Source: Candidatus Sumerlaeota bacterium | GTDB lineage: Bacteria; Sumerlaeota; Sumerlaeia; MWCT01; JAUWMI01 | Assembly (NCBI GenBank): GCA_030613245.1 | Contig: JAUWMI010000003.1 | Location: 1,062-65,061 of the forward strand | Direction: 5' to 3' | Length of the DNA stretch: 64,000 nt | Part shown: piece after piece, positions 7,981 through 44,068 of the stretch | How the letters are laid out: every line of letters begins with the position of its first letter | Position numbering within the stretch: position 1 is the stretch's first letter | The notes under the pieces: generated by a model | Seen by the model: only the letters and a program-made list of their open reading frames with translations | The model's database searches: none | Told to the model about the DNA's origin: nothing | Made by a program: the position numbers and the translations under genes

Positions 7981-9255
7981 TCAGGATTTCCGTTTTTGCT
8001 TTTTCTTGGCCACGGGCTTTATTAGTAATGCTAGCTTATCCATGACGTGCGCGGCAACCTCTATTTTCGTCATGCGAGGAAGCGACTGGGTTGTGCCCTG
8101 TTTGTAAATAAGAGTTACTTTATTGAAATCGGACTGAAACCCCGAGTCTGACTGGCCTACGATGTTGGCGACGATCATATCAAAGCCTTTCGCGGCCAGT
8201 TTCTGTTTTGCCTGCCGCACGAGATCGCGAGTTTCTGCAGCGAAGCCGACGACAATCTGGTGTGGTGATTTCTTCTTGCAAACGGCGGCAGCGATATCGG
8301 GATTTGGGACAAGCACGGTGTGGAGGGAGGCGGAGGATTTTTTTCGTTTTTGCGGCTCCTGACTTGCCGGGCGGTAGTCTGAAACGGCTGCAGCAAGGAT
8401 GATGGCATCTGCTGTTTTGAGGCGTTTCATGACGGCCTGATGCATCTCGCGAGCAGTAATTACGCGGCGCACCATAATCCCTGGAGGATCGGGAAGGCTT
8501 GTGGGCCCTGAGATGAGGGTTACCTGGGCGCCACGGCGTGTCGCCTCCTCAGCGAGCGCATAGCCCATTTTGCCCGATGAAGGATTGGAAAGGTAGCGCA
8601 CGGGATCGAAGTATTCATGCGTTGGCCCTGCAGTGACAAGGATGCGATGTCCTGCCAGCGCAGTGCAGTGGCTGAAATATGAGGAAATGACTTCGAGAAT
8701 TCTTTCTGGCTCCTCCAGGCGGCCAATGCCTTTCTCTCCACTGGCCAGAAAGCCGGTTTGCGGTGGAATCTGGCGAATACCGCGCCCTGCCAGCTGGCGC
8801 AGGTTCTCCTGCACAATGGGATGTGTATACATGGTGCTGTTCATCGCGGGTGCAATGAAGGTGGGCCCTTGAAAGGAGAGGAACAGAGTAGATAAGGAGT
8901 CGTCGGCAATCCCCTGGGCGAATTTGCCAATAATATTGGCTGTGGCAGGGGCAACCAGGAGTAGGTCGCCCCACTCGCTGAGGGCGATGTGTTCCATCTC
9001 CCATCCATGTTCGCGGCTGAAGAGACCAGTATAGACCGGATGTCGGGACATGGCTTCAAATGTGATTGGTGCCACAAGTTTCGTGGCAGCATGAGTCATG
9101 ACGACCTTGACGTCTGCGCCTTGTTTGCGAAACAGGCTGCACAGGTCAAGGGCTTTGTAGATGGCAATGCTCCCCGAGACGCCGAGGATGATGTGTTTCT
9201 CTTTAAGCATCGGGAGTGTGGCTTTCGTGTTTTGTTTTCCATGCCTTGATTTCAT
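7981..9255 (-). CDS. coaBC: Bifunctional phosphopantothenoylcysteine decarboxylase / phosphopantothenate-cysteine ligase.
   Basis: 424 aa. N-terminal flavoprotein motif 'ILGVSGSIAIYKALDLCSLFRKQGADVKVVMT' and a C-terminal CoaB-like domain. It sits in the conserved neighbourhood with gmk and yicC. Confidence 0.9.
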   Translation of the reverse strand: MKSRHGKQNTKATLPMLKEKHIILGVSGSIAIYKALDLCSLFRKQGADVKVVMTHAATKLVAPITFEAMSRHPVYTGLFSREHGWEMEHIALSEWGDLLLVAPATANIIGKFAQGIADDSLSTLFLSFQGPTFIAPAMNSTMYTHPIVQENLRQLAGRGIRQIPPQTGFLASGEKGIGRLEEPERILEVISSYFSHCTALAGHRILVTAGPTHEYFDPVRYLSNPSSGKMGYALAEEATRRGAQVTLISGPTSLPDPPGIMVRRVITAREMHQAVMKRLKTADAIILAAAVSDYRPASQEPQKRKKSSASLHTVLVPNPDIAAAVCKKKSPHQIVVGFAAETRDLVRQAKQKLAAKGFDMIVANIVGQSDSGFQSDFNKVTLIYKQGTTQSLPRMTKIEVAAHVMDKLALLIKPVAKKKQKRKS

Positions 9256-9290
9256 TTGCCTTTTCCCCTAACCGACAAACCGACAAACTG

Positions 9291-11055: not shown

Positions 11056-11084
11056 TGTGAATCACCTCAGTGTAAGAATTGTTT

Positions 11085-11149
11085 TGTAGGGGCGTTTAAC
11101 TAAACGCCCATTGAGCTGTGTCTGGGGCGTTCAATAGAACGCCCCTACA
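11085..11149. repeat. REP-like element made of two hairpins in a GTAGGGGCG...CGCCCCTAC frame (BIME-like unit).
   Basis: tgtaGGGGCGTTTAacTAAACGCCC ... GGGGCGTTCaataGAACGCCCCtaca. Both arms are perfect or near-perfect 9-10 bp stems. Confidence 0.8.
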
Positions 11150-11172
11150 ATGCGTATCATGGCAAGATGAAT

Positions 11173-11682
11173 TTAACGCCTCTGCTGATAGATATCTTTC
11201 CAATATAGACCATGCTCAAGGTTAAAATTCTTTGATGATGGGTTTTCTCTATCCAGCTCCCAGTTTATGGGATTGTTCTGAATGTATTCCCTAATTCGGG
11301 ACAATTCCTTCTCGTTACGAATAATGTGTTCGTAATAATTACGCTGCAATTTGAAATTTGAAAAACCATTTTTTCTGCACCAATTTGTCAATGCTGTCTT
11401 ATACGTGCGGATTATTACAGACAAGGTGTTCTTCCTTGGGGATATTCTCACATGATGTGTAGGGGCGTTTAAATAAACGCCCCTCGAGCTGTGTGTTGGA
11501 TTACCAGCTGATCTATCAGGGGCGTTCAATAGAACGCCCCTACAATGTGCATCATTTTCAGTAATCATTATTATTCCATGTAGGTGGTTTGGCATGACTA
11601 TAAATTCATCCAATTGGGTATTACCATGGTGCGCTGATATCTCCTGCCAAAACTTGTCTGCTTTCTTTCCTATTGTAGACAA
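11173..11682 (-). CDS. IS200/IS605-like Y1 (HuH) transposase of the REP-associated tyrosine transposase (RAYT) type. Its reading frame runs through a REP pair.
   Basis: HuH motif 'MPNHLHGIIMI'. The C-terminal 'FKLQRNYYEHIIRNEKELSRIREYIQNNPINW' matches the RAYT tail (catalytic Tyr; YI..NP..W). Residues ~47-85 (CRGVLLNAPDRSAGNPTHSSRGVYLNAPTHHVRIS) are the translation of the REP element at 11458-11544. That stretch is therefore either an in-frame REP insertion or a recently inactivated gene. Confidence 0.6.
   Translation of the reverse strand: MSTIGKKADKFWQEISAHHGNTQLDEFIVMPNHLHGIIMITENDAHCRGVLLNAPDRSAGNPTHSSRGVYLNAPTHHVRISPRKNTLSVIIRTYKTALTNWCRKNGFSNFKLQRNYYEHIIRNEKELSRIREYIQNNPINWELDRENPSSKNFNLEHGLYWKDIYQQRR
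11458..11544. repeat. REP-like two-hairpin element lying inside the RAYT ORF.
   Basis: tgtaGGGGCGTTTAaaTAAACGCCCC ...35 nt... aGGGGCGTTCaataGAACGCCCCTaca. Confidence 0.8.
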
Positions 11683-12020
11683 GATAACGATACCTTCTTT
11701 TACATGGCCAAGACTGCAGAAGCTATTGTATGTACAAATTGTTACAAAATATGCACCTGCCTCGGAATAATCATACCCTTTCAGCCGAATAACCTTTCTA
11801 TTTTACATATCGCCTCAATAGCTGAAAGAGATCATTTTAGCCAGAGGGATTGCTTGCTAAGTCATTGGCATATTTTGACGAAACACGATACTTCAACTTC
11901 TATAAGTACCGACCCCTAGAATATGCGCTCTCGAATGCAATTCCTCCAGCATGGTGACGCATATCATAAACGATGTTCTTTTAAAAAGTAAAGGGGAATA
12001 TCTTGTTCCTATTTGCTTTT

Positions 12021-12107
12021 TGTAGGGGCGTTTTAATAAACGCCCGATGAATAGGTCCGTCTTGAATTAAGCAGGTGTGTCTGGGGCGTTCAGTAGAACG
12101 CCCCTAC
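12021..12107. repeat. REP-like two-hairpin element overlapping the 3' end of the AI-2E transporter ORF.
   Basis: tgtaGGGGCGTTTTAATAAACGCCC ... GGGGCGTTCagtaGAACGCCCCTAC. The last 13 aa of the transporter ORF (RRGVLLNAPDTPA) are the repeat's translation. Confidence 0.8.
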
Positions 12108-13266
12108 GTTTGGCTTCGCGGAGCTTGTCCCACCAAAATTCTTTGATCAGGATGCGCACGACGCAGGCCACCGGAATTGCTACGATCATCCCCCCCAGTC
12201 CGAAGTAAGCGCCAATCATCAAAGCGAGCAACACGGCCAGGGGATGGAGTTCGCTGTTCTTGCCCACAATGCGGGGCGTGAAAATCATACTGTCAATGGC
12301 CTGGATCAGGGCAAACAGGCCGATTACCTCTGCTGAACCTATCAGCTTATCCGAAAGACTGGGGAAACCGCTGGACGCGAGTACCCAGATGAGCGATGGA
12401 ACTGCCCCAAGCAGAGGTCCAAGGTAGGGAATGATGTTACCGATGCCAGCCACGACGCCAATAAGAATGGCATACTTCTTCAGGCCGATAAGCAGCAGGC
12501 CAATCGTGGTCAGCAGTCCTACAAGGCAGCAAATAGTCAACTGGCCCCGCAAAAACCCACCAACTGCCTCATCAATCCGGTTGAGAATGCTGAATACTCG
12601 TTCTTCGTGCTTCGTCGGGATAACTGTTGATACCAGACCCTTGATCTTATGGAAATCCAGCAGGAAGTAAAAATTGATTATGACCACAAGAATCACGAAT
12701 GAGGTCAACGAGAAAAATAATCCGAATCCGGCGGCCACTCTTTTGGCCACCGCACCTGCTACAGAGACTCCCTCTGCGGCTGCGCCGTGCAGTCCCGGAA
12801 GCATGGCGCCGAGAACGCTGCGAAGATCAGTTCCCAGGGATTCTAATGTGTCTGTGATCTTCTGCATTTGCGCTTCGTTCAGTGTGATATCGTATCTCTT
12901 CATGAGCGTGTTGAGCTGAGCCGGTATGACTTCGCTGAGGCGCTTAATGAGTTCGCTGATCTGATGGTAGAGATTGGGTAGTAAGAAGAGCATGAACGCG
13001 GCGATCAACAGCAGAATGATGACGTAGAATGTGACAAGACCCAGGATGCGCGAGAGTTTGAGCCGCTGCTGAACGAACGTCACAATGGGATTAAAAAGGT
13101 AGGCAATAATCAATGCGACGCAGAACGGTGCCAGGATGTTGGCAATTATGCGCAAAACAGGGCTGAGCTGCACCAGTGCATACACTGCAACGGCGATGAT
13201 AAGCATGTATCCGATCACGAGCAGCGTTTTCTTTAGCTTCGTATCAAGATCAGGTATGCTTCCCAT
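12067..13266 (-). CDS. AI-2E family transporter (UPF0118/PerM-like).
   Basis: 399 aa, ~8 TM segments. 'ILAPFCVALIIAYLFNPIV' and the overall topology are typical of AI-2E family permeases. The annotated C-terminus runs into the REP element, so the true stop may be functionally the same. Confidence 0.7.
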   Translation of the reverse strand: MGSIPDLDTKLKKTLLVIGYMLIIAVAVYALVQLSPVLRIIANILAPFCVALIIAYLFNPIVTFVQQRLKLSRILGLVTFYVIILLLIAAFMLFLLPNLYHQISELIKRLSEVIPAQLNTLMKRYDITLNEAQMQKITDTLESLGTDLRSVLGAMLPGLHGAAAEGVSVAGAVAKRVAAGFGLFFSLTSFVILVVIINFYFLLDFHKIKGLVSTVIPTKHEERVFSILNRIDEAVGGFLRGQLTICCLVGLLTTIGLLLIGLKKYAILIGVVAGIGNIIPYLGPLLGAVPSLIWVLASSGFPSLSDKLIGSAEVIGLFALIQAIDSMIFTPRIVGKNSELHPLAVLLALMIGAYFGLGGMIVAIPVACVVRILIKEFWWDKLREAKRRGVLLNAPDTPA

Positions 13267-14509: not shown

Positions 14510-14621
14510 AAATAATCACGCTTGAGAAATTATTTGCAGGGCAAAAGCATTTGCCGCACTCTGCCGCTTATCATGCACACATACATGGGTTACCCTAACG
14601 AATGAGGGTAGAGATTGTAAA

Positions 14622-14894
14622 CAGGTTTTCGTCACGATGCGATCTGGAGGCGCTATCTTTATGCTCACACTGAACAAGGTATGTTGCACAGGCAAGGATG
14701 CCTGTGCCACCAATTACAATGGGCAATGCAAGAGGAAATACGTGAAAATGAAAAAATTAAAAATGGTAGAACAGGCTTCCAGCCTGTTATCAGGTTTTCG
14801 TCACGATGCGATCTGGAAGCGCTATTTTTATGCTCACACTGAACAAGGTATGCTGCACAGGCAAGGATGCCTGTGCCACCAATTACAATGGGCA
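14622..14894. repeat. Two ~105-bp direct repeats (14622-14726 and 14791-14894, ~95% identical). Each contains the perfect hairpin CACAGGCAaggaTGCCTGTG.
   Basis: Direct sequence comparison. The repeats lie in the intergenic region between the GT39-like gene (upstream on the minus strand) and the HEXXH peptidase gene start. Confidence 0.8.
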
Positions 14895-16592: not shown

Positions 16593-16803
16593 GAATTATG
16601 TACATTCCTGAATCAGTAGTGCGAGTTGCTCCTGCTTGGATAACGCGCCGGAGGCGCATAAACGCATACAATCCCGTTTATGCAAAGAAGCCGGAGGAAA
16701 GGCAAGGGGAAAAAATCAGATGGGTGTGGAGTGATTTATGCGCCTACGGCGCATTCACGTCGTGGCGTCGTGGTTTGATAGTTCTTTTTGTTAGGTGCTA
16801 TTA

Positions 16804-16990
16804 GTCTGTGTTAATCTGTGTTCATCTGTGGTTTCAATATATGTTAATATCGCAACCGCTGATACACGCAGATACACGCGGATTTTGTAGGGGCACGCCG
16901 CTGCGTGCCCCTACCTTATAAATCTCTGTGTCTCTGCGTCTCTGTGGCTGTTTTTTACCACGGAGCATGCGCAAGGCCGATGGAGCAACG
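16804..16990. repeat. Copy A of a ~190-bp composite repeat. It contains tctgtgtt(a/c)a iterons and an embedded GC-type REP hairpin (16886-16915).
   Basis: >90% identical to 17889-18085. The palindrome GTAGGGGCACGC-cgct-GCGTGCCCCTAC sits inside it. Confidence 0.85.
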
Positions 16991-17097
16991 TAATTGTTGC
17001 AAAATATAAGAATTCGTGTTGACTTTTTGGAAGGCATGATAATAGCATTAGGACGAAAAATTGGAAGATTAGAGACAGCAAGCTCATTTCTTAAATC

Positions 17098-17307
17098 ATG
17101 GGTAAGGTGTGGGAAGCTAAAGACATGATACAAAAAATTGTGACCAAACGTAGCTTGCGAGATTCTCGTTCCAAGAATCATGACCTGGCCTATTGGATGG
17201 GCAAGAGCCCCGAGGAACGAGTAGCCACTGTAGACTATTTGCGAAGGCAGTACTATGGAAGTTCAGCCAGACTTCAGAGATCTGCTCGGGTTGTTCAACG
17301 TACATAA
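17098..17307 (+). CDS. Small ORF overlapping the nucleotidyltransferase start. It is a possible cognate partner (antitoxin-like).
   Basis: 69 aa ORF that overlaps the downstream gene by 53 nt in another frame. It is basic, with 'KSPEERVATVDYLRRQYYG'. There is no strong family signature. Confidence 0.3.
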   Translation: MGKVWEAKDMIQKIVTKRSLRDSRSKNHDLAYWMGKSPEERVATVDYLRRQYYGSSARLQRSARVVQRT

Positions 17308-17701
17308 AGTTGAATATATGATTGTAGGGGCCTATGCGCTAGCCTTTCACGGGGTGCCGCGTTTTACTGGTGATCTTGACATTTTTATCAAACCCGATTC
17401 TGAAAACGCTCGGCGCATTTTGCAGGCGCTCGACGAATTTGGTTTTAAATCTGTTGGTCTGACCTTAGAGGATTTTCAGAGCACCGACAAGGTTGTCCAA
17501 CTCGGCGTTCCTCCGGTTCGTGTAGATATCATAACATCTCTGACTGGTGTCTCATGGGAAGAGGCGTTTTCAGGCAGAGCTGAAGGTAAATACGGAGATA
17601 CGCCAGTTTACTACATTGGGCGTGAACAGTTCATTGCGAACAAACGTGCCATGGGAAGAAAGAGAGATTTTGCTGACTTAGAAGCTCTTGGTGAAGAGTG
17701 A
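17255..17701 (+). CDS. Minimal nucleotidyltransferase (Pol-beta superfamily) domain protein, probably a toxin-antitoxin component.
   Basis: 'IVGAYALAFHGVPRFTGDLDIFIKPD' fits the G[SA]x9-13Dx[DE] NTase motif (GDLDIF). 148 aa, stand-alone, flanked by repeats. Confidence 0.6.
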   Translation: MEVQPDFRDLLGLFNVHKVEYMIVGAYALAFHGVPRFTGDLDIFIKPDSENARRILQALDEFGFKSVGLTLEDFQSTDKVVQLGVPPVRVDIITSLTGVSWEEAFSGRAEGKYGDTPVYYIGREQFIANKRAMGRKRDFADLEALGEE

Positions 17702-17888
17702 TGTCGCGAGTTCAGGGTTCGGTAAACAGAGCGCTCCAAAGCTTAAAGGCTCCCTTCTAAAGCGGCTACGAACTTCCCTACCTTCCTCCCAGCGGCTATA
17801 AATTCCAACCCCGCTGGTAGAATACATCCATCCATTTCAATTTCCTGCAATGTGTAATTACGCCACAGAGACACGGAGTGTGTGCATA

Positions 17889-18085
17889 AGTTTTAATCCG
17901 TGTTCATCTGTGTTCATCTGTGGTTTCAATATATGTTAATGTCGCAACCGCTGAAGCACGCAGATACACACGGATTTTGTAGGGGCACGCCGCTGCGTGC
18001 CCCTACCATATAAATCTCTGTGTCTCTGCGCCTCTGTGGCTGTTTTTCTTACATATCACCACGGAGTCACGGAGTAGGTACAAAA
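17889..18085. repeat. Copy B of the ~190-bp composite repeat, with an embedded GC-type REP hairpin (17978-18007).
   Basis: Near-identical to 16804-16990. A third, shorter copy at 18091-18215 lacks the ~90-bp REP-containing core. Confidence 0.85.
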
Positions 18086-18090
18086 GTTTT

Positions 18091-18215
18091 AATCCGTGTT
18101 CATCTGTGTTAATCTGTGGTTTCAATCTGATCTATTTGTGATTTATATCTCCGTGTCTCTGCGCCTCCGTGGCTGTTTTTTACCACGCAGCATGCGCAAG
18201 GCCGAAAGAGTAGGC
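18091..18215. repeat. Copy C of the composite repeat. The REP-containing core is absent.
   Basis: The 5' 34 nt and 3' ~70 nt align to copies A and B. The middle ~90 bp (including GTAGGGGCACGC...) is replaced by 26 bp. Confidence 0.8.
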
Positions 18216-18476
18216 CAATTGGTGAAAAATACGAGAGTCGAGCTTGACTTTTTGGGGGCTATAATAATAAGTTTATAATCGCATAATTGGTTGAATTACC
18301 GTGAATTGCTGCGCTTGGGTATGAAGAGTGGTTTTCCCTGAAGAAATCCCCATTGGTGCATATTGGTGATTTGAGTGAAATTAAGGATCACGCAGCTTCA
18401 GGCGTTCACCTGAGTTAGACAGCATAAAATGAATCGTTTGTAGAATCGTTTAGGCCGGATAATCAGAGGTAAGGTT

Positions 18477-18953
18477 TTGTGGAGAACATTCAGCAACATG
18501 AATGGCGGTGATGTCATGGTATTCAAAGCAAGAAGGTTGCGCCTTTTTGCGGTGGTTATGGCAATCTGTTGGATTGTTGGTGGGATTACTTATTTGTTTC
18601 GCGGCGATAACGGAGATTGTGTGTTATTCTTGAGGTATATATCTTCTTACACAATCTTGGGCGTCGCTTATAGCGCCATTATGATTATTGGAACTATTGG
18701 TGAGCATATCGTTCTGACGGCAGACGCAGTCCAGGGTGCAGAACACTCCTCTTTCTGGAAAGCGAGAAGAATCTCAGTATCATTAAACTCGATCGATTTG
18801 TCCAAAAGCGATAAAGGGTCGTTTTGGAGAAACGCTGTTATAGTGACATCTGATGGCCATAAGATAACCATAGCTTCTTATCTCGGCAGGAAGCAGGTGG
18901 ATAAGATATTTAAAGAACTGGAGCAAAGACTTGCCAGTAAATCTTCTGCCTGA
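18477..18953 (+). CDS. Hypothetical membrane-associated protein.
   Basis: 158 aa with two N-terminal hydrophobic helices followed by a soluble domain. No motif recognised. Confidence 0.35.
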   Translation: MWRTFSNMNGGDVMVFKARRLRLFAVVMAICWIVGGITYLFRGDNGDCVLFLRYISSYTILGVAYSAIMIIGTIGEHIVLTADAVQGAEHSSFWKARRISVSLNSIDLSKSDKGSFWRNAVIVTSDGHKITIASYLGRKQVDKIFKELEQRLASKSSA

Positions 18954-19490: not shown

Positions 19491-19554
19491 GGCGAACGGC
19501 AAGGTGCAGCTGCCTTGGTATTCCGCGTCGCTCCATACCAAGCAGCTGAGCTGC
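19491..19554. repeat. ~60-bp hairpin-forming repeat, copy 1 (the second copy is at 20851-20910).
   Basis: AGGTGCAGCTGcCTTGGTATtccgcgtcgctccATACCAAGCAGCTGAGCT. This is a long imperfect stem. An identical core occurs after the next gene. Confidence 0.8.
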
Positions 19555-19582: not shown

Positions 19583-20809
19583 ATGGTGAAACGCCTTTTG
19601 ATTAGCGTGTTTATGTTTACTCTCTGGCTCACGCTGTGCGCTTCAGTTCATGGTTACATTTCCAACCCATTCAATGCAAAGCGTCTCCTTGATTCGGCAG
19701 ATTTAGTCTGCCATGGAAAGGTTGTTTCAGTTACCGCGCATGAAGTCGAGAAGGACTCCCGATTCCATCCGCCTTTGGAAACTGAGGGAGGTATGGCGAG
19801 GATACGCATAATCAATATCATCAAGGGAAAGGTTCCTGGTGTTATTGACGTTGTATTCAGGAAGCCTGCTTCGACAGTGCTTTACACTCAACTGGCGCAA
19901 GACGAAGAGTGTATTCTTTTCTTAAGGTCAACAAAAGGATACTACCGGTTTGTTGACGACCACAACGGCAAACTCTCTATTCCGCCTCATAAGGCGATTC
20001 AGTACAAGTCCGAATCCCCTGAAGATCGAATGGTTGCGGAGCTGATATTTGGCACTGAGGCTGATTCGGGCCGTATCCGGCTCGTCTGTGCCGAACAGCT
20101 CGGAGACTTTGCGCATACTGAGGCGGTAGCTCGTCTGAAGGCTCTTAGCTTAGTCAACGGCATGGAGCTGCAAGGCGTCGCCTACGCAGCTTTGATTCGG
20201 CTGGACCACCCCCCGGAGGCCAAAGAGCTTGCCGGTTTCTTTGCACGGCAAGACAATACTGGGTCTTCCGAGCGATTCGGTACAACAAAATACAGCAATG
20301 GGCACCTAAAGGGAAAGATTCTCATCGAGCTTCACCAACGATTCAACGTGATATGCCGAGACTTTAATCTTCCTTACAGCAGTTCTAAGCATGTCGCCCG
20401 TAAGGAGGCCGCAAGAAAAGCGGCAGGGCAATGGAAAGACTTCGACCTCATCCACTTTCTTAACTCAGCGCCGTGGAAAGATTGCGATACCAGCTCTGTC
20501 ATCTACAACCGGGTCATAGCCGACATTGTGGGCGACCAAATTGATAGACAGGGGGCGCCCGCTGTTAGCAATAAGACATATCGCAAGGGAAGCAAGTCGA
20601 TCGTGTTGGGCCTGCTTGAAAGTGAAAATAGCGAGATTCGTTGCGCGGCAGCACGCGCTATAGACAGAATGATTGCCGAACCCCACAAGTTTCCCTATCC
20701 ACAATACAGAAACGGTGTTAGAAAAATAGAGGAGGTTGATGCGTACGTTAATGCCTGTCGCGAATGGATTGCTGCTCACAAAGAGTGGGTCAATGAAAAC
20801 GAGAAATAG
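19583..20809 (+). CDS. Secreted hypothetical protein with HEAT/PBS-lyase-like helical repeats.
   Basis: Signal peptide 'MVKRLLISVFMFTLWLTLCASVHG'. The middle region has helical repeats with 'RLVCAEQLGDFAHTEAVARLKAL' HEAT-like units. Confidence 0.4.
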   Translation: MVKRLLISVFMFTLWLTLCASVHGYISNPFNAKRLLDSADLVCHGKVVSVTAHEVEKDSRFHPPLETEGGMARIRIINIIKGKVPGVIDVVFRKPASTVLYTQLAQDEECILFLRSTKGYYRFVDDHNGKLSIPPHKAIQYKSESPEDRMVAELIFGTEADSGRIRLVCAEQLGDFAHTEAVARLKALSLVNGMELQGVAYAALIRLDHPPEAKELAGFFARQDNTGSSERFGTTKYSNGHLKGKILIELHQRFNVICRDFNLPYSSSKHVARKEAARKAAGQWKDFDLIHFLNSAPWKDCDTSSVIYNRVIADIVGDQIDRQGAPAVSNKTYRKGSKSIVLGLLESENSEIRCAAARAIDRMIAEPHKFPYPQYRNGVRKIEEVDAYVNACREWIAAHKEWVNENEK

Positions 20810-20850: not shown

Positions 20851-20910
20851 GAGCAGAGAAGGTGCAGCTGACTTGGTATTCCGCGTCGCTCCATACCAAG
20901 CAGCTGAGCT
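20851..20910. repeat. ~60-bp hairpin-forming repeat, copy 2.
   Basis: AGGTGCAGCTGaCTTGGTATTCCGCGTCGCTCCATACCAAGCAGCTGAGCT, the same core as 19491-19554. Confidence 0.8.
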
Positions 20911-21685: not shown

Positions 21686-22407
21686 GGAAGATTTGCAAAA
21701 AATGTAGACAGAAGGTGTTTTATTGACTCGTTTTGTACCAGAAAGTGCTAAGAATGCCGTATGTCCCCATTTTGTCTCCCCTTTTGTCCCAACGGATGAT
21801 TCTCAATGCAAATCCGCGCGTGTATCCGTGGTATTAATAGTAAGTCAATTTACTCAGATTAAACCGCAGATGAACACAGACAAACACAAAAATAATTCAT
21901 ATATTTAAACCGCAGATGAACGCAGATAAATACTTAAGAAAAGACAGATTAAGAATTTACAGGAATGTAAACGAATGTGATGTATTTATTCGTGTCTATT
22001 TGTGCCTATTTGTGTCCATTCGTGGTAAATTGTTTGTACATTTCTTTGTTATTTGAATTGTAACCGCAGATGAACGCAGATGGACACAGATAAATATTTA
22101 AGAAAAGACCGAACACGAATTTACACGAATAAATGCCTATTTTAAGCAAGAGTGCGTAGTGCTGCGCGTACTCAATACTGCAAAAATACACCAGGCACAG
22201 TGCAAAGCTGCGCTATTTTGCATTTCATGGAAAGATGGTGTTACAAAATGCGGACGCGCACTTCCATGTCAGGAAGCAGCGGAACTGGTGGGAGCGTGAC
22301 TTACCAGTAGTGCCACGCACATGAGGAGCGAAACAGCCGAAAAGAGGCGGCACCGAAGACGTAATCGTTGGAGGGGCGCCATGGGCACGTGGGAGTTGAA
22401 TCTCCTG

Positions 22408-23898: not shown

Positions 23899-24188
23899 GC
23901 CTCATTAATAAAAAATCATTTATGAAAATTAAACATAATAAGAATAAAAGCTGAGATAACTACTGTTTTCTTAGACCTATATATCCATCTTCTCAGGTGT
24001 CAAGGCTTTTTAGGGAGCACTTGCTCAAAAAATTGTTCTGGATATTAATACTTTGCAGATAATGCTGCAATTTGTTGCAGTCGGGATGGAAACGTAGTGG
24101 ACTGCTTGTGTTGAATAAAATTGGTGAGTGCGTGTAGTAGGGCCACCGAGACACGGAGGCACAGAGTAAATGGATAAGGCGGCAGGGT

Positions 24189-33611: not shown

Positions 33612-34029
33612 TCGTCGATCCCAACTATTGTTTATATGGTTTCCGTATAAGAAGCTTTAACCGGCTATTGCGCCAGATAACTTCTCTCTTAGCGATGTAA
33701 CACATTTGCGCTTACCTGGCTCAAAGAGCGTCTGGCGGGCTTCGTACCCCTTTGCCTCGTCGATTGAGAACATGGGTATAGATCATCGCCTTTTTCACAT
33801 CTCTAGCCTAACTAACAAACAAGAATATCCCAGCCTCTAATATAATTGCAAGTTTTTTCTGTTATGCCAATCCAGGTGCGAGCATAATATAGCCCAAATT
33901 TTGCAGTTGAGTTTAATGAAAGTGACAAGATCATTATGCAAAATACAGAAAAAGCTTTGATTAGTATTTTACCACGAAGGCACTAAGGCACGAAGGCCAC
34001 GAAGATTTCTTGACAAAAAAATGACAGAA

Positions 34030-34567
34030 ACTATTAGACAGGATGAAAAAACGTAAAGAATCTTGTAAATCTTGTAAATCATGTCCAAAAAAAAGTAAAA
34101 AGAAGGACAGAAATTATCAGACAGGATTGACAAGATTAACAGGATTTAAAGACGTAAAGAATCTTGTAAATCATGTAGATCTTGTCCAAAAGAATTTAAA
34201 AAGAAGCACAAACATTATTAGACAGAATTAACAAGATTAACAGGATTTAAAAACATAAAGAATCTTGTAAATCATGTAAATCTTGTCCAAAAAATTAAAA
34301 CGAAGCACAAAAACTATCAGACAGGATTGACAAGATTAACAGGATGAAAAACGCAAAGAATCTTGTAAGTCATGTAAATCGTGTCCAAAAGAAATGACAA
34401 GAATTATTAGACAGGATTAACAAGATTAACAGGATTTAAAGACGTAAAGAATCTTGTAAATCTTGTAAATCATGTCCCAAAAGAAATGACAAAAATTATT
34501 AGACCGGATTAACAAGATTAACAGGATTTAAAAACGTAAAGAATCTTGTAAATCGTGTCCAAAAAGC
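34030..34567. repeat. Minisatellite of ~5.5 tandem copies of a 95-100-bp unit. It is not a CRISPR array.
   Basis: The unit is approximately agacaggattaacaagattaacaggatttaaagacgtaaagaatcttgtaaatcatgtaaatcttgtccaaaagaaatgacaagaattatt. Both the 'repeat' and 'spacer' parts are conserved between units. Each unit has the internal inverted repeat acaagatt/aatcttgt. Confidence 0.85.
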
Positions 34568-34712
34568 ATTCCCCGATCTTCAGAGCCGCCAGGGAAAATT
34601 GCTTTTGACATTAGGGGGTCGTTATGAGAAGGATATTTTTACATCCTGCCAGGAAGGTAGGGCGTGAATATGGCGTATTTAAAACGGGTGAATTTGTAGA
34701 GCGGTTGGTGAT

Positions 34713-41263: not shown

Positions 41264-43883
41264 CGTTGTATTTATGCGAAAGAGTATATTCTTCGGGATT
41301 CTGATGAGTGGCATGGCGTTAGTATACGGCTGTGGGTGCGTGACAGCATCGGGGCCTGAAGGAGAGAGCCATGTCCTTTTGGTTGAGATTCAGAATGTTG
41401 AACCACCCCACAACCGACTAACCGGCCAACCGACTAACCGACTGGTCGCTGTTGAGGGAAAGCCGCTATTCAGTGATGAAGTGCGGGAATTATTTGTAGA
41501 GTTTGGTATAAACCAGGGGTGCAATGTGATGCCTGCCGAGCCGGAAAAGGAAGACAAGGCCGGGCAGGCCAAGACGCACGCGTATCAGCAGTATCTGCGC
41601 GGTGCATGGCTTTTTGAAAACCGCCGCTATAAGGAGGCGCTTGAGTATTTTGAGCAGGCGAGTAGCGAAGACCCTGGATCGTTGCACATCCGCTATTCTA
41701 TCGCGACCTGTTACTTGCGTCTGGGGAAGCTTGAGAAAGTGCTGGAAGTGTGCGAAGCCGTTCTCAAAAAAAACCCAGGGGCCGCAGATGCCTTAATTCT
41801 TAAGGCCGAGACGTTCGCGGCCATGGATAACTATCGAAAGGCCCAGGAGCTCTACGAACAGGTGCTCGAAACCGAACCGAAGAATGTTCGAGCACTGGAG
41901 GCCCTGGGCAAGATTTATTTCAAGATTCAGGGCAATCTCGACAAGACGATTTCTGTGTATGAAAAAATCCTCTCGGTGAATCCGAAGGATCTCTATGCTC
42001 TGGTTATACTCGGCTCTGTATATGCTCTCAAGAACGATGTGGATAAGAGTCTGGCCTATTACGACCGAGTTCTGCAGCATCAGCCAGGCCTATTGAATAA
42101 GTTTATTCAGATGGGCACATTGCTGGAAGAGCATAAGCAATATGAAGGGGCGCTAAAGGTATATCGGCGGGCTGTCGTTTACGATTCAAAAAATCCGCTT
42201 GCACTGCAGAATTTTGAGCGTCTGGTGCTAAAGTTGCAAGGACGCGATGGGCTGCTTGCAGCATATCAGGCGCTGGCTGAGGAGTATCCGGTTGTCATTG
42301 AGCTTCAAGAATTGTATGCCAACCAACTCATGGAGATGGGGCGTTATGAAGAGGCGAGTAAGCAATTTGGCGTGGTGCAGGTGTTGAGTCCGGAGAATGT
42401 GCATGTGCAAGTTGCGCTGGCAAAGATTGCGCTGGCAGAGGGTAAGGAGAAAGAGGCTGGGGCTGCGTTGCGTAAGGCGCTTGAGCTGAGCTTGAATAAA
42501 GCGGATGTTTATACGCAGCTGGGGCTCTTTTGCCAGCAGCGGAAGGCCTACGCGCAAGCAGCCTCGTATTTTGAGCAGGCGAGGGAGCTGGCGCCGAAAA
42601 ATGCTGTTGTGATAATGCACTTGCTCCGCACGTATTATCGGCTGCAAGCGTATGACAAGATGGAAGCGCTGATCAAACAGAGCATTGCGGAGAATGAAAA
42701 ATCAGATCATCTGCATGCCCTCCTGGGAGGGTTCTATAGGGATCAGAAAAGGACGCAAGACGCCATTGAGTTATACCAGAAAGCAATAGCGCTGAAGCCA
42801 GCGGAGCTGTCCTACGTTGCGGCGCTAGGAGAGTTGTATTTGCAAACAGACCAGCTCGAGGAATTTCAGACGTTCGTTCAGGCGCAAGAGCAGCATTTTG
42901 AGAAGAATGCAAAAAGGTTCGACATGCTCATTGCCTCTTTTTACAATGACTACGGGAAGTTTTCCAAGGCCTTACCGTATTTACAGAAGGCTCTGGCTAT
43001 TGACCCAGCCGATCTTAGTCTGTATGGCTATTTAAGCTGGACGTATAATCGGCTGTATCAGTATGACCAGGCGATAGAGATTCTGGAAAAGGCCAAGGCG
43101 GAGCTTGGCGAGAAGGCCGAGTCTGTCGAGTACGACATGCTGCTTGCCACGGCGTATACAGACCAGAAGAAGTACGAACAAGCTGTGGCGCTCTACGAGA
43201 AGGTGCTTGAGCGTTCTCCAACCAATATTGAGGCGTACCGCTCGATCACGTTTTGTCTTAATAAGCAAGGCAAGCATAAGAAGGCCATTGACTATGTGGA
43301 GAAGGCGGAGAAGGCGATTGGCAAAGAGAAACCAGAGGTGGCGGATCTTCGGGCGCAGGCTCTTCTGGATCAGAAGCAGTATGACGAGGCAGCGGCGATT
43401 TACCAGCGGCTGATTGACCAGGATAAAACGAATGACCGCTACTATTTTCTGCTCGGTCAGGTCTACTATGACGCGAAGCGATTTACGGAAGCAGAAGTAG
43501 CGTTTCGCAAGGCCATTGAGTTGAATAAGAATAACGTGGATGCTTATAATAATCTCGGCTACATGTTTGCCGAGAACAAAATGCATCTCGACGAAGCCCA
43601 GAAGTTAATTGAGAAGGCGCTCGAGTTGCATCCGAATGCGGGCTACATTATTGATAGCCTCGGATGGGTCTATTTTCAAAAAGGAGACGTAGAAAAGGCC
43701 CTGGAGCTGCTCGAGAAGGCAATGTCGCTCTCCGCGGATGACCCTGTCATGTTTGATCATCTGGGCGACGCCTATCGGGCGAAAGGTGAGATAGACAAAG
43801 CACTGGAGTACTGGGAACGGGCTATCGAGATTGATCCGTCAATGCCAGATGTGAAAAGGAAAATTGACGAGCTGAAGAAATAA
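41253..43883 (+). CDS. Large TPR-repeat lipoprotein-like protein.
   Basis: 876 aa. N-terminal signal with 'LVYGCGC'. The rest is almost entirely 34-aa TPR units (W/LG/Y/A/F/A/P pattern). Confidence 0.6.
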   Translation: MMCSVVFMRKSIFFGILMSGMALVYGCGCVTASGPEGESHVLLVEIQNVEPPHNRLTGQPTNRLVAVEGKPLFSDEVRELFVEFGINQGCNVMPAEPEKEDKAGQAKTHAYQQYLRGAWLFENRRYKEALEYFEQASSEDPGSLHIRYSIATCYLRLGKLEKVLEVCEAVLKKNPGAADALILKAETFAAMDNYRKAQELYEQVLETEPKNVRALEALGKIYFKIQGNLDKTISVYEKILSVNPKDLYALVILGSVYALKNDVDKSLAYYDRVLQHQPGLLNKFIQMGTLLEEHKQYEGALKVYRRAVVYDSKNPLALQNFERLVLKLQGRDGLLAAYQALAEEYPVVIELQELYANQLMEMGRYEEASKQFGVVQVLSPENVHVQVALAKIALAEGKEKEAGAALRKALELSLNKADVYTQLGLFCQQRKAYAQAASYFEQARELAPKNAVVIMHLLRTYYRLQAYDKMEALIKQSIAENEKSDHLHALLGGFYRDQKRTQDAIELYQKAIALKPAELSYVAALGELYLQTDQLEEFQTFVQAQEQHFEKNAKRFDMLIASFYNDYGKFSKALPYLQKALAIDPADLSLYGYLSWTYNRLYQYDQAIEILEKAKAELGEKAESVEYDMLLATAYTDQKKYEQAVALYEKVLERSPTNIEAYRSITFCLNKQGKHKKAIDYVEKAEKAIGKEKPEVADLRAQALLDQKQYDEAAAIYQRLIDQDKTNDRYYFLLGQVYYDAKRFTEAEVAFRKAIELNKNNVDAYNNLGYMFAENKMHLDEAQKLIEKALELHPNAGYIIDSLGWVYFQKGDVEKALELLEKAMSLSADDPVMFDHLGDAYRAKGEIDKALEYWERAIEIDPSMPDVKRKIDELKK

Positions 43884-44068
43884 ATTCTTCTGCCAGTTTA
43901 TTGTATTCTCTTGAGTTAGATTTTCTTAGTGCTAACACACCCACATTGCTTTTCCTTATTCCTCTATCCTTTCCATTAACCGACAAACGGGCAAACGGAT
44001 TTTGGATGAAACGTCCCTTGATAACCGCGAGGAGCACGTAGAGTCTCGTACCCGCGCCACTTTTTCTC

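What the first reader, a model, noticed from the sequence alone, without database searches (positions are those of the whole stretch)
16804..18215. Stand-alone nucleotidyltransferase with a small overlapping partner ORF, bracketed by three copies of a ~190-bp composite repeat, one of which lacks the REP core
The 148-aa Pol-beta-type nucleotidyltransferase (GDLDIF motif) and an overlapping upstream 69-aa ORF form a toxin-antitoxin-like pair. The pair lies between near-identical copies of a complex repeat: A at 16804-16990 and B at 17889-18085. A third, truncated copy C follows immediately at 18091-18215.

Copies A and B contain the GC-type REP hairpin. Copy C has the same flanks, but the ~90-bp REP-bearing core is replaced by 26 bp. 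This looks like a natural before-and-after snapshot of REP insertion or excision.

The repeat also contains tctgtgtt(a/c)a iterons and the ccacagagacacggag inverted motifs. A related CCAC(C)GAGACACGGAG motif recurs at 24148.
Basis: seen in the sequence. Interest (0 to 1): 0.6.

Follow-up and report, generated by a model that had tools for sequence, protein, structure and literature searches.

The report
Toxin-like cassette flanked by mosaic palindromes
A small two-gene, toxin-antitoxin-like cassette sits in a recombination-prone stack of hairpin repeats in a Sumerlaeota chromosome, and those repeats look like gene-less copies of the arms that flank a very large, uncharacterised family of small nuclease genes in many phyla.

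Summary
Three copies of a composite repeat bracket a 148-aa nucleotidyltransferase and an overlapping small ORF. The third copy lacks an ~87-nt core.

The gene pair is real and mobile. The small gene (60 aa, true start 17125) has 80 homologue clusters. It accompanies the NTase in unrelated genomes, always with a ~53-nt out-of-frame overlap. The NTase's nearest solved relative is the tRNA-modifying toxin MenT1 (shared PRFTxDxDI motif). Its Pfam AbiEii score falls just below cut-off.

The repeat is a mosaic with four parts:
- an outer stem of tandem octamers followed by a T-run;
- a hairpin of tandem decamers;
- a GTAG-type REP, with a RAYT transposase homologue 6 kb away;
- a ~125-nt promoter-like extension.

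Three related haplotypes carry different cassettes between these repeats, which indicates recombinational shuffling. Copy C is not a clean REP-empty site. A better before/after pair exists in a sister genome.

Unexpectedly, the decamer and octamer arrays occur across many phyla. In 10 of 10 loci inspected they flank GxxExxY (PD-(D/E)XK) genes, and I found no description of this. Toxicity, termination and mobility are inferred, not shown.

The parts
16804..16833 (+). Copy A, R1: array of three tandem decamers (GTCTGTGTTA ATCTGTGTTC ATCTGTGGTT)
16854..16883 (+). Copy A, F1: complementary decamer array (AACCGCTGAT ACACGCAGAT ACACGCGGAT). It pairs with R1 or with R2.
16887..16914 (+). Copy A, GTAG-type REP hairpin (GTAGGGGCACGC CGCT GCGTGCCCCTAC)
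16922..16956 (+). Copy A, R2: three tandem octamers (CTCTGTGT CTCTGCGT CTCTGTGG) followed by GCTGTTTTTT
16957..17048 (+). Conserved extension of the repeat (ACCACGGAGCATGCGCAAGGCCGA...), ending in TTGACT (17019-17024) and a GATAAT/TAGCAT box. It is promoter-like, and sequence diverges by cassette after it.
17125..17307 (+). Predicted helical; putative antitoxin.
17255..17701 (+). 148-aa minimal Pol-beta-type nucleotidyltransferase, MenT1/TM1012-like. It overlaps the small gene by 53 nt in the +1 frame.
17863..17878 (+). Copy B, F2: octamer array (CCACAGAG ACACGGAG), the 5' strand of the outer stem
17896..17925 (+). Copy B, R1 decamer array
17946..17975 (+). Copy B, F1 decamer array
17979..18006 (+). 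Copy B, GTAG-type REP hairpin, identical to that of copy A
18014..18047 (+). Copy B, R2 octamer array plus T-run. With F2 it closes a three-way junction (-87 kcal/mol, z = -9.3).
18059..18074 (+). Copy C, F2 (CCACGGAG TCACGGAG). The A-to-G change is matched by a T-to-C change in C's R2.
18092..18121 (+). Copy C, R1 decamer array. The F1 arm and the REP are absent after it.
18147..18181 (+). Copy C, R2 octamer array (CTCCGTGT CTCTGCGC CTCCGTGG) plus T-run
18182..18272 (+). Copy C, conserved extension with TTGACT (18244-18249) and an ATAATAAT box, upstream of the DUF2244 gene (18477-18953)
11173..11802 (-). Context: RAYT (REP-associated tyrosine transposase) homologue. It is flanked by GTAGGGGCGTT-type REP doublets and carries one such doublet in frame. 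It is the likely mobiliser of the GTAG REP family.

Best explanation
The interval is one cassette of a hypervariable intergenic island in a Sumerlaeota (BRC1) chromosome. The island lies between a PMT_2 glycosyltransferase gene and the DUF2244/PCC genes.

(1) The cassette. It is a horizontally mobile two-gene module spanning about 17110-17701. A 60-aa helical protein is encoded upstream of a 148-aa minimal nucleotidyltransferase and overlaps it by 53 nt. By analogy with MenA1/MenT1, the NTase is a toxin that adds nucleotides to tRNA 3' ends, and the small protein neutralises it by direct binding. This step is inferred.

(2) The flanking 'composite repeat'. It is a mosaic of extragenic palindromes:
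- tandem-octamer arms (F2/R2) followed by a T-run;
- tandem-decamer arms (R1/F1);
- a GTAG-type REP lying in the loop of an F1..R2 hairpin;
- a ~125-nt extension with a promoter-like box.
These units most likely act as terminator-plus-promoter spacers between cassettes. This is inferred from the hairpin plus T-run, the position downstream of genes, and the conserved TTGACT box.

(3) Recombination. Because the units are similar to each other, they serve as substrates for homologous recombination and gene conversion, which add, remove and reshuffle cassettes. Comparison of three haplotypes shows this.

(4) Origin of the parts. The REP belongs to a family served by a RAYT transposase homologue 6 kb away. 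The decamer and octamer arrays are gene-less relatives of the arms that flank GxxExxY (PD-(D/E)XK) genes in many phyla.
For: Module:
- The NTase has 4537 homologues at 75-98% identity across phyla.
- The small ORF has 80 clusters of mostly 60-62 aa with a conserved start, stop and C-terminus.
- The pair occurs in six unrelated contexts. Homology starts about 10-15 nt before the small gene's ATG and ends at the NTase stop.
- Nucleotide identity in the overlap is 0.89-0.92, against 0.71-0.82 outside it, as dual coding predicts.
- The NTase model matches TM1012 and MenT1 (TM 0.61, probability 1.0).
- A profile search puts MenT1 first (E 0.0011), with PRFTgDlDI aligned to MenT1 PRFTRDVDI.
- MenA1 is a 68-aa helical antitoxin (PMC10435456). 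The small protein is predicted to have three helices.

Repeats:
- Copy B folds at -87 kcal/mol (z = -9.3), and an alternative two-hairpin fold is only about 10 kcal/mol weaker.
- There is a compensatory change between B (CCACAGAG/CTCTGTGG) and C (CCACGGAG/CTCCGTGG).

Variability:
- L002 has an extra 77+76-aa cassette and more repeat units at the same site.
- L126 has an ACT-domain gene before a B-like copy.
- Window copy A is 89% identical to B-type copies but only 74% to its positional counterpart in L002.

REP and RAYT:
- NCBIfam REP_Tyr_transpos, E 4.8e-13.
- HUH and Tyr motifs align to E. coli TnpA-REP, PDB 4er8.
- The gene is flanked by GTAGGGGC REP doublets.

Arrays:
- The CRCRRAK x2 grammar gives 14 matches against 0.24 expected at period 10, and 9 against 0.18 at period 8.
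- The decamer motif gives at least 119 loci across many phyla, against about 0.5 expected from database size.
- Hairpins lie mostly between tandem (24) or convergent (9) genes and rarely between divergent genes (3). The sequence is A-rich before them and T-rich after.
- 10 of 10 GxxExxY genes inspected are flanked by such arms.
Against: - No experiment shows toxicity or neutralisation.
- The NTase is shorter than MenT1 (148 vs 196 aa). It scores just below the Pfam AbiEii cut-off (21.5 vs 22.5 bits) and matches nothing in PADLOC or NCBIfam.
- The small protein has no detectable similarity to any known antitoxin. Its model is of low confidence (pLDDT 64).
- The TTGACT and ATAAT boxes are only 13 nt apart. 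The generic promoter scan found no excess over shuffles and picked a different -10 hexamer.
- Copy A lies in a divergent intergenic region, where it cannot terminate an upstream + strand gene.
- G.U versus A.C mismatches show no strand asymmetry (28 vs 22), and both strands fold equally well. Action at the RNA level is therefore not demonstrated.
- No haplotype lacking only the NTase cassette was recovered.
- No GxxExxY gene is present in the window or in the sister contigs.
Confidence: 0.6

Rival explanations
1. The island is an integron-like cassette array. The composite repeats are attC-type recombination sites used by a site-specific integrase encoded elsewhere (a CALIN-like cluster), not substrates of homologous recombination.
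For: - Cassettes of one or two small genes are separated by structured imperfect palindromes.
- Cassette content differs between three haplotypes at one chromosomal site.
- Toxin-antitoxin-like cassettes are typical of chromosomal integrons (established knowledge).
Against: - No integrase was found among the neighbouring genes scanned.
- The repeat units are 190-330 nt mosaics whose sub-modules occur independently elsewhere in the window and in other phyla.
- Each cassette carries its own promoter-like box.
- Breakpoints fall inside repeats at different positions. One copy appears to have been converted (74% vs 89% identity).
- No attC model was available to run.
Confidence: 0.07
2. The NTase pair plus its flanking arms is itself a transposable unit. 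The inverted R2 (16922-16947) and F2 (17863-17878) arrays act as terminal inverted repeats that carry the cassette.
For: - R2 of copy A and F2 of copy B are inverted repeats 913 nt apart that enclose the promoter box and both genes (pair I7).
- Similar arms flank GxxExxY genes elsewhere.
Against: - In six other genomic contexts the same gene pair has no such arms. Homology stops within about 15 nt of the genes.
- The same arms flank different genes in L002 and L126.
- No target-site duplication is evident.
Confidence: 0.1
3. The NTase is not a toxin but a modifying or resistance enzyme (ANT/Lnu-like) or a housekeeping enzyme. The small overlapping ORF is then a translationally coupled leader or chaperone.
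For: - There are weak matches to aminoglycoside 2''-adenylyltransferase (Pfam, E 0.027) and to lincosamide resistance proteins (PDB, E 0.16).
- TM1012, the best structural match, has no known function.
Against: - The best profile match and the shared PRFTxDxDI motif point to MenT1.
- The upstream-small, downstream-NTase order, the patchy cross-phylum distribution at 75-85% identity, and the placement among other small mobile gene pairs all fit toxin-antitoxin modules.
Confidence: 0.2
4. The composite repeats are genes for structured non-coding RNAs, for example antisense or sponge RNAs that regulate the cassette, rather than DNA-level or terminator elements.
For: - Folding is very stable (z about -9).
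- There is a compensatory change in the outer stem between B and C.
- G.U pairs appear on the + strand in the R1:F1 hairpin.
Against: - No Rfam family matches, even at E up to 10.
- Both strands fold equally well.
- 70 hairpins show no G.U strand bias.
- Copies vary by whole-module indels, which a functional RNA would not tolerate.
Confidence: 0.08

Closest known systems
MenAT1 (MenA1/MenT1, Rv0078B/Rv0078A) and the wider AbiE/MenT DUF1814 nucleotidyltransferase toxin-antitoxin systems
   Same: - Both have a Pol-beta NTase fold.
- The catalytic motif PRFTxDxDI is shared. It includes the Thr that MenT1 auto-phosphorylates.
- A short helical protein of 60-68 aa is encoded next to the toxin gene.
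- Both show patchy, horizontally transferred distribution.
(PMC10435456, PMC11375011)
   Different: - The NTase is shorter (148 vs 196 aa) and about 20-24% identical.
- It scores below the Pfam AbiEii gathering score.
- The partner shows no similarity to MenA1 or AbiEi.
- The two genes overlap by 53 nt out of frame.
- No activity has been shown.
TM1012 (PDB 2ewr/2fcl/4hx0), putative nucleotidyltransferase of Thermotoga maritima
   Same: It is the best structural match (E 3e-4, TM 0.61) and is of similar size, about 160 aa.
   Different: Sequence identity is 20%, its function is unknown, and no partner protein has been described.
REP/REPIN elements with RAYT transposases, and E. coli BIMEs (mosaics of REPs and other motifs)
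   Same: - A GC-rich palindrome with GTAG tags.
- Extragenic position.
- A RAYT homologue flanked by related REP doublets in the same window.
- A mosaic, variable arrangement with other motifs.
- Presence/absence of the REP at corresponding sites.
(PMC3733652, PMC3116915)
   Different: - The REP is one module among tandem-oligomer palindromes that lack GTAG or CGTC tags.
- The REP sits in the loop of another hairpin.
- The unit carries a promoter-like extension and separates gene cassettes.
GxxExxY protein genes (TIGR04256 / Pfam PF13366 PDDEXK_3)
   Same: Arms made of tandem decamers with the same CRCAGAT-type cores, (A)AACCAC...GTGGTT(T), flank these genes in 10 of 10 loci inspected. The start codon often lies inside the arm, giving MNTD or MNAD.
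   Different: The window's units carry no such gene. They enclose only short loops, another hairpin or a REP. Whether the nuclease mobilises the arms is unknown.
Chromosomal integron cassette arrays (attC sites)
   Same: Small cassettes, often toxin-antitoxin pairs, are separated by structured repeats, and cassette content varies at one locus.
   Different: No integrase or attC signature was found, the cassettes have their own promoter-like boxes, and the repeats are dispersed mosaics.
BOX elements of Streptococcus pneumoniae and other modular MITE-like repeats (Correia/NEMIS, ERIC)
   Same: These are modular intergenic repeats with variable numbers of sub-units that form stable hairpins and lie near gene ends. 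This comparison rests on my own knowledge and was not tested here.
   Different: There is no sequence relationship. The sub-units here are 8-10-mers rather than about 45-mers, and the grammar is shared across phyla.

Membership tests
MenT/AbiEii (DUF1814) NTase toxin-antitoxin | Pol-beta nucleotidyltransferase fold with the catalytic T/S-x-D-x-D motif | tested here: met
   Foldseek finds MenT1 8an5_B (probability 1.0, TM 0.61). The profile alignment pairs PRFTgDlDI with PRFTRDVDI. T38, D40 and D42 are invariant in 27 homologues.
MenT/AbiEii (DUF1814) NTase toxin-antitoxin | Reaches the curated Pfam AbiEii (PF08843) score | tested here: not met
   21.5 bits against a cut-off of 22.5, covering residues 24-68 only. 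There is no NCBIfam or PADLOC hit.
MenT/AbiEii (DUF1814) NTase toxin-antitoxin | Conserved adjacent partner gene that could be an antitoxin | tested here: met
   The 60-62-aa partner is conserved upstream in all seven loci examined and forms 80 clusters.
MenT/AbiEii (DUF1814) NTase toxin-antitoxin | Partner homologous to a known antitoxin (MenA1, or AbiEi/COG5340) | tested here: not met
   There is no Pfam, NCBIfam, PADLOC, PDB-sequence or fold match.
MenT/AbiEii (DUF1814) NTase toxin-antitoxin | Toxicity of the NTase and neutralisation by the partner | not testable with these tools
   This needs expression assays.
GTAG-type REP / REPIN-RAYT system | Short GC-rich palindrome with a terminal GTAG tag | tested here: met
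   GTAGGGGCACGC-CGCT-GCGTGCCCCTAC is present at 16887 and 17979.
GTAG-type REP / REPIN-RAYT system | Cognate RAYT gene flanked by REPs | tested here: met
   The ORF at 11173-11802 (-) matches NF047646 at E 4.8e-13, below the equivalog cut-off. Its HUH and Tyr motifs align to 4er8. GTAGGGGCGTT REP doublets lie on both sides. The REP in the composite repeat shares only the GTAGGGGC head with these.
GTAG-type REP / REPIN-RAYT system | Many dispersed copies in the genome | tested here: inconclusive
   The window holds only 2 copies of this exact type and about 7 of the related type. The whole genome was not available.
GTAG-type REP / REPIN-RAYT system | Presence/absence polymorphism at corresponding sites | tested here: met
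   L002 5381-5528 has 12 nt where window A, window B and L002 6574-6736 have the 29-nt REP.
Integron cassette array | intI integrase and attC sites (R''/L''/L'/R' with GTTRRRY) | tested here: inconclusive
   No integrase was found among the 26 window ORFs scanned. Not all ORFs were scanned, and no attC model was available.
MITE | Terminal inverted repeats plus target-site duplication | tested here: inconclusive
   Inverted arms are present. No target-site duplication was recognised, and no empty site was compared for the arms themselves.
Arms of GxxExxY-gene elements (tandem-oligomer palindromes) | Inverted arrays of at least two tandem 8-10-mers with CRCRRAK cores, with outer ends (A)ACCAC...GTGGT(T) | tested here: met
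   14 and 9 matches against 0.24 and 0.18 expected. The same sequences flank GxxExxY genes.
Arms of GxxExxY-gene elements (tandem-oligomer palindromes) | A GxxExxY gene between the arms | tested here: not met
   tblastn finds none in the window, L002 or L126.

The most novel reading that the evidence does not exclude
The decamer and octamer 'iterons' belong to an undescribed superfamily of tandem-oligomer palindromes that spans bacterial phyla and archaea.
- Full-length members carry a GxxExxY PD-(D/E)XK nuclease gene between the arms, with its start codon buried in the stem.
- Gene-less miniature copies litter intergenic regions.
- These copies act as landing pads for REPs and as recombination joints that assemble islands of small toxin-antitoxin or defence cassettes.

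If so, the GxxExxY nuclease would be the mobilising or homing enzyme of these elements. That would give a function to a family of more than 8000 protein clusters.
Probability: 0.3. Interest if true: 0.75.

Novelty: new variant of a known kind. Interest (0 to 1): 0.6.

Why it matters
Three reasons.

1. The gene pair is a very common but unnamed module: 4537 NTase homologues spread across phyla. It probably extends the MenT/AbiE family of tRNA-targeting toxins to a minimal 148-aa form with a new 60-aa partner and an unusual conserved 53-nt dual-coding overlap. It would be easy to test.

2. The locus gives a natural series of states: hairpin with an empty loop, hairpin with a REP in the loop, arm lost, and cassette present, absent or replaced. 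The series shows how REP-type and other palindromes nest into each other and drive cassette turnover without an integrase.

3. The tandem-oligomer arrays link this locus to the arms of GxxExxY nuclease genes. That family is huge and its function is unknown. The link suggests these genes and thousands of orphan hairpins are two forms of one mobile element. I found no description of this in the searchable literature.

Tried and rejected
RNA family:
- Rfam at gathering threshold over the whole window, and at E up to 10 over the locus, returned only noise from miRNA-like hairpins.

Literature:
- Six searches on the repeat sequences and on related terms found nothing relevant.
- Elhai 2008 on small dispersed repeats in cyanobacteria could not be read. 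A prior description there or elsewhere is therefore not excluded.

NTase tied to the decamer motif:
- Rejected. Among 119 motif-selected loci the NTase occurs only in the sister contig.

RNA-level selection:
- The G.U versus A.C strand-asymmetry test was negative (28 vs 22). It is also partly circular, because the search grammar allows R/Y variation.

Sigma-70 promoter and terminator scan:
- No excess over shuffles. Only C's R2 was flagged as terminator-like.

Small-protein fold search:
- No hits, and the model confidence is low.

TIRYT/TIRtron terminal repeats (Di Nocera 2013):
- These share a GGGGWSAS motif, not the arrays seen here.

Phage vectors for the arrays:
- Only 13 matches in IMG/VR, which is uninformative.

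CsrA-site and pause-signal readings of the arrays:
- Considered from memory only. Dropped as too low in information to test.
Full report
OBSERVATION

Copy A (16801-16955) and copy B (17893-18047) are 94% identical without gaps. Copy C (from 18059) shares both flanks but has about 24 nt where A has about 87 nt. The GC hairpin GTAGGGGCACGCCGCTGCGTGCCCCTAC is exact in A and B, against 0 expected. The decamer motif gives 10 matches against 0.07 expected. The motif near 24148 is present.

The repeat is longer than reported. After the T-run it continues for about 125 nt to a TTGACT...ATAAT box in A and C, and likewise in the three L002 copies and the one L126 copy that were aligned. Beyond the box the sequence diverges according to the downstream cassette.

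ANATOMY OF THE REPEAT

Each unit is built from arrays of short tandem units. I call the CAC-rich orientation F and its complement R.

In copy B the order is:
- F2, CCACAGAG ACACGGAG (17863-17878);
- R1, three decamers ending ATCTGTGGTT (17896-17925);
- F1, AACCGCTGAA GCACGCAGAT ACACACGGAT (17946-17975);
- the REP (17979-18006);
- R2, CTCTGTGT CTCTGCGC CTCTGTGG (18014-18039);
- then GCTGTTTTT.

The minimum-energy fold is a three-way junction of F2:R2, R1:F1 and the REP. Its energy is -87.2 kcal/mol with z = -9.3, and the minus strand folds almost as well. An alternative fold is only about 10 kcal/mol weaker: two tandem hairpins, F2:R1 and F1:[REP]:R2. In that view the REP sits in the loop of an ordinary F..R hairpin.

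Between B and C the outer stem changes on both sides, from CCACAGAG/CTCTGTGG to CCACGGAG/CTCCGTGG.

IS COPY C A 'BEFORE' STATE?

Only in part. The sister contig L002 supplies intermediates:
- L002 5381-5528 has the F1 arm but carries 12 nt (TAGAGTTATGAT) where A, B and L002 6574-6736 carry the 29-nt REP.
- L002 4114-4240 has a truncated F1 and no REP.
- Window C and L126 C lack both.

So C differs by at least two events, and the REP difference is a replacement rather than a clean insertion. The L002 5381-5528 hairpin with its empty loop is the best before/after partner.

The REP is of the GTAG-tagged kind (PMC3733652). Six kb away the window holds a RAYT homologue:
- NCBIfam REP_Tyr_transpos, E 4.8e-13, below the equivalog cut-off;
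- HUH and Tyr motifs aligned to E. coli TnpA-REP, PDB 4er8;
- Pfam Y1_Tnp only weakly matched.

It is flanked on both sides by GTAGGGGCGTT-type REP doublets and reads in frame through a third doublet. That it mobilises the GTAGGGGCACGC hairpin is an inference from the shared head sequence.

THE GENE PAIR

The NTase has 4537 homologues, typically 148 aa. They are 75-85% identical in MAGs labelled Deltaproteobacteria, BRC1 and others.

The small ORF is conserved at 81-82% amino-acid identity upstream of the NTase in two unrelated genomes where it was not annotated. A direct search gives 80 clusters, mostly 60-62 aa, starting MIQK (window 17125) and ending ...ARLQRSARVIQR. In two further loci it is annotated and overlaps the NTase start by 53-59 nt.

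Across seven loci, homology begins 10-15 nt before the small gene's ATG and ends at the NTase stop. The overlap is more conserved at the DNA level (0.89-0.92) than either flank (0.71-0.82), as two constrained frames predict.

The NTase scores just under the Pfam AbiEii cut-off. Its AlphaFold model (pLDDT 69) best matches TM1012 and the toxin MenT1. A profile of 27 homologues ranks MenT1 first among solved structures (E 0.0011), aligning PRFTgDlDI to PRFTRDVDI. T38, D40, D42, K130 and D141 are invariant.

MenT1 extends tRNA acceptor stems and is blocked by MenA1, a 68-aa helical protein that bridges two toxin protomers (PMC10435456). The window's small protein is predicted to form three helices at low confidence. 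It matches no known family or fold.

I therefore read the pair as a minimal MenAT1-like toxin-antitoxin module. The architecture and the catalytic motif are shown. Toxicity and neutralisation are inferred.

THE LOCUS IS A VARIABLE ISLAND

L002 is a Candidatus Sumerlaeota MAG contig (title) that is syntenic with window 13.5-19.5 kb.
- Between the same PMT_2 and PCC genes it has about 1.5 kb that the window lacks: three more repeat units and a 77+76-aa gene pair.
- It also has extra hairpin modules after the NTase and a duplicated DUF2244-like gene.

A third haplotype, L126, has an ACT-domain gene followed by a B-like REP-bearing copy and then a C-like copy.

Window copy A is 89% identical to B-type copies but only 74% to L002's copy at the same position. 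The adjoining cassette is about 94.5% identical between the two contigs. A has therefore been replaced or converted. These data show recombinational turnover between the repeats. They do not show excision of the NTase cassette itself.

No integrase was found among the neighbouring genes scanned.

THE ARRAYS ARE NOT LOCAL

Distribution of the motifs:
- The 21-mer ATCTGTGTTMATCTGTGGTTT occurs in at least 119 stretches of GTDB representative genomes. About 0.5 would be expected from database size (my calculation).
- The hosts include cyanobacteria, Acidobacteriota, Planctomycetota, Verrucomicrobiota, Nitrospirota, NC10, Desulfosporosinus, spirochaetes and two archaea.
- The usual form there is a hairpin, AACCACAGATGAACACAGAT...ATCTGTGTTCATCTGTGGTT.
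- The R2 module occurs in 24 metagenome contigs. Typically it is the 3' arm of a long stem whose loop holds other palindromes.

Grammar and position:
- The cores follow a restricted grammar, CRCRRAK, repeated every 8-10 nt.
- In the window this grammar gives 14 matches at period 10 and 9 at period 8, against about 0.2 expected. All fall in a few intergenic regions.
- In the fetched loci, 70 F..R hairpins have loops of 8-187 nt, and only 4 lie inside ORFs.
- They lie between tandem (24) or convergent (9) genes far more often than between divergent genes (3).
- They sit tens of bases from stop and start codons. The sequence is A-rich before them and T-rich after. This resembles REPs and bidirectional terminators.
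- There is no G.U strand bias, so I cannot say whether they act as RNA or as DNA.

LINK TO GxxExxY GENES

Looking for arms separated by more than 300 nt revealed six loci, with a gene of 120-139 aa between F and R. These are GxxExxY proteins (TIGR04256, E down to 3e-45; Pfam PDDEXK_3). All six GxxExxY genes in the fetched loci are flanked this way.

Four loci chosen by protein alone are flanked too, some with other decamer cores.

In 67 of the 120 best homologues the protein starts MNTD or MNAD. That corresponds to ATG AAC RCA GAT, so the start codon lies inside the arm.

The family has at least 8000 clusters. It is listed as of unknown function with multiple inter-domain transfers (PMC3424549). 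I found no paper describing the arms.

The window's arrays carry no such gene. They look like gene-less relatives, as REPs are to RAYTs or MITEs to insertion sequences. That relationship is an inference. The restricted grammar could also produce identical arms in different phyla without recent transfer.

From memory, and not tested here: the arrangement resembles intervening sequences of 23S rRNA genes, whose inverted ends form an RNase III-cleaved stem around a small ORF.

VERDICT

The gene pair is a new, minimal variant of a known toxin-antitoxin kind. The repeats are a new mosaic variant of extragenic palindromes.

Noticed in passing
window 11080-12119 (ORF 11173-11802, minus strand): A RAYT (REP-associated tyrosine transposase) homologue is flanked by GTAGGGGCGTT-type REP doublets. 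A third doublet (11453-11555) lies inside the gene and is read through in frame, between the HUH and Tyr motifs. No canonical start codon precedes the conserved N-terminus.
   Followed up: partly
L010 1920-2348, L014 7431-7845, L044 3493-3903, L064 5154-5585, L068 4987-5474, L082 2109-2593, L164, L165, L166, L170: GxxExxY (PF13366, PD-(D/E)XK) genes sit between inverted arrays of tandem decamers. These are the same kind of arrays as the window's 'iterons'. The start codon is often inside the arm (MNTD/MNAD).
   Followed up: yes
window 34033-34575: About 5.4 tandem copies of a ~101-nt unit. Each unit contains a hairpin built from 9-mers (GATTAACAAGATTAACAGGATT / AATCTTGTAAATCTTGTAAATC). An octamer array, CACGAAGG x4, lies just upstream at 33973-34004.
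   Followed up: no
window 21860-22130: A cluster of decamer arrays with other cores (CGCAGAT, CACGAAT, CACAAAT). The same module occurs in the opposite orientation in the sister contig, at L002 3918-4014 and 6367-6483, next to the NTase cassette.
   Followed up: partly
window 17255-17307: The small gene and the NTase overlap by 53 nt in different frames. The overlap is conserved in all seven loci examined and is more conserved at the DNA level than the flanks. Whether it serves translational coupling or frameshifting is unknown.
   Followed up: partly
window 14616-14894: A 169-nt unit is repeated in tandem twice here. The sister contig L002 carries further copies of the unit or its sub-segments (starts at 1284, 1364, 1453 and 1614). 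The repeat lies in the spacer between the peptidase_MA_2 and PMT_2 genes.
   Followed up: no
window 19501-19552 and 20859-20910: A 52-nt direct repeat (98% identical) lies on either side of the 408-aa HEAT-repeat gene (19583-20809).
   Followed up: no
L002 4513-4982; L148 1338-1640: The extra cassette of the sister genome encodes a 77-aa and a 76-aa protein with no family match. A 45%-identical relative of the 76-aa protein lies next to the NTase pair in an unrelated metagenome contig, beside two DUF2283 genes.
   Followed up: partly
window 9251-9290, 41412-41443, 43959-43996: Octamer arrays of another type (AACCGACA / AACCGACT) recur at three places.
   Followed up: no
window 16834-17181 (minus strand); L001 1-273; L002 5485-5754: Gene callers annotate an antisense ORF of about 90-115 aa that runs through the repeat and the small gene. 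It is probably spurious, because it is the plus-strand small ORF that is conserved across phyla.
   Followed up: partly
window 24145-24166: An orphan F-type octamer array (CCACCGAG ACACGGAG GCACAGAG) with no complementary partner within about 250 nt upstream or the 34 nt of downstream sequence examined.
   Followed up: partly
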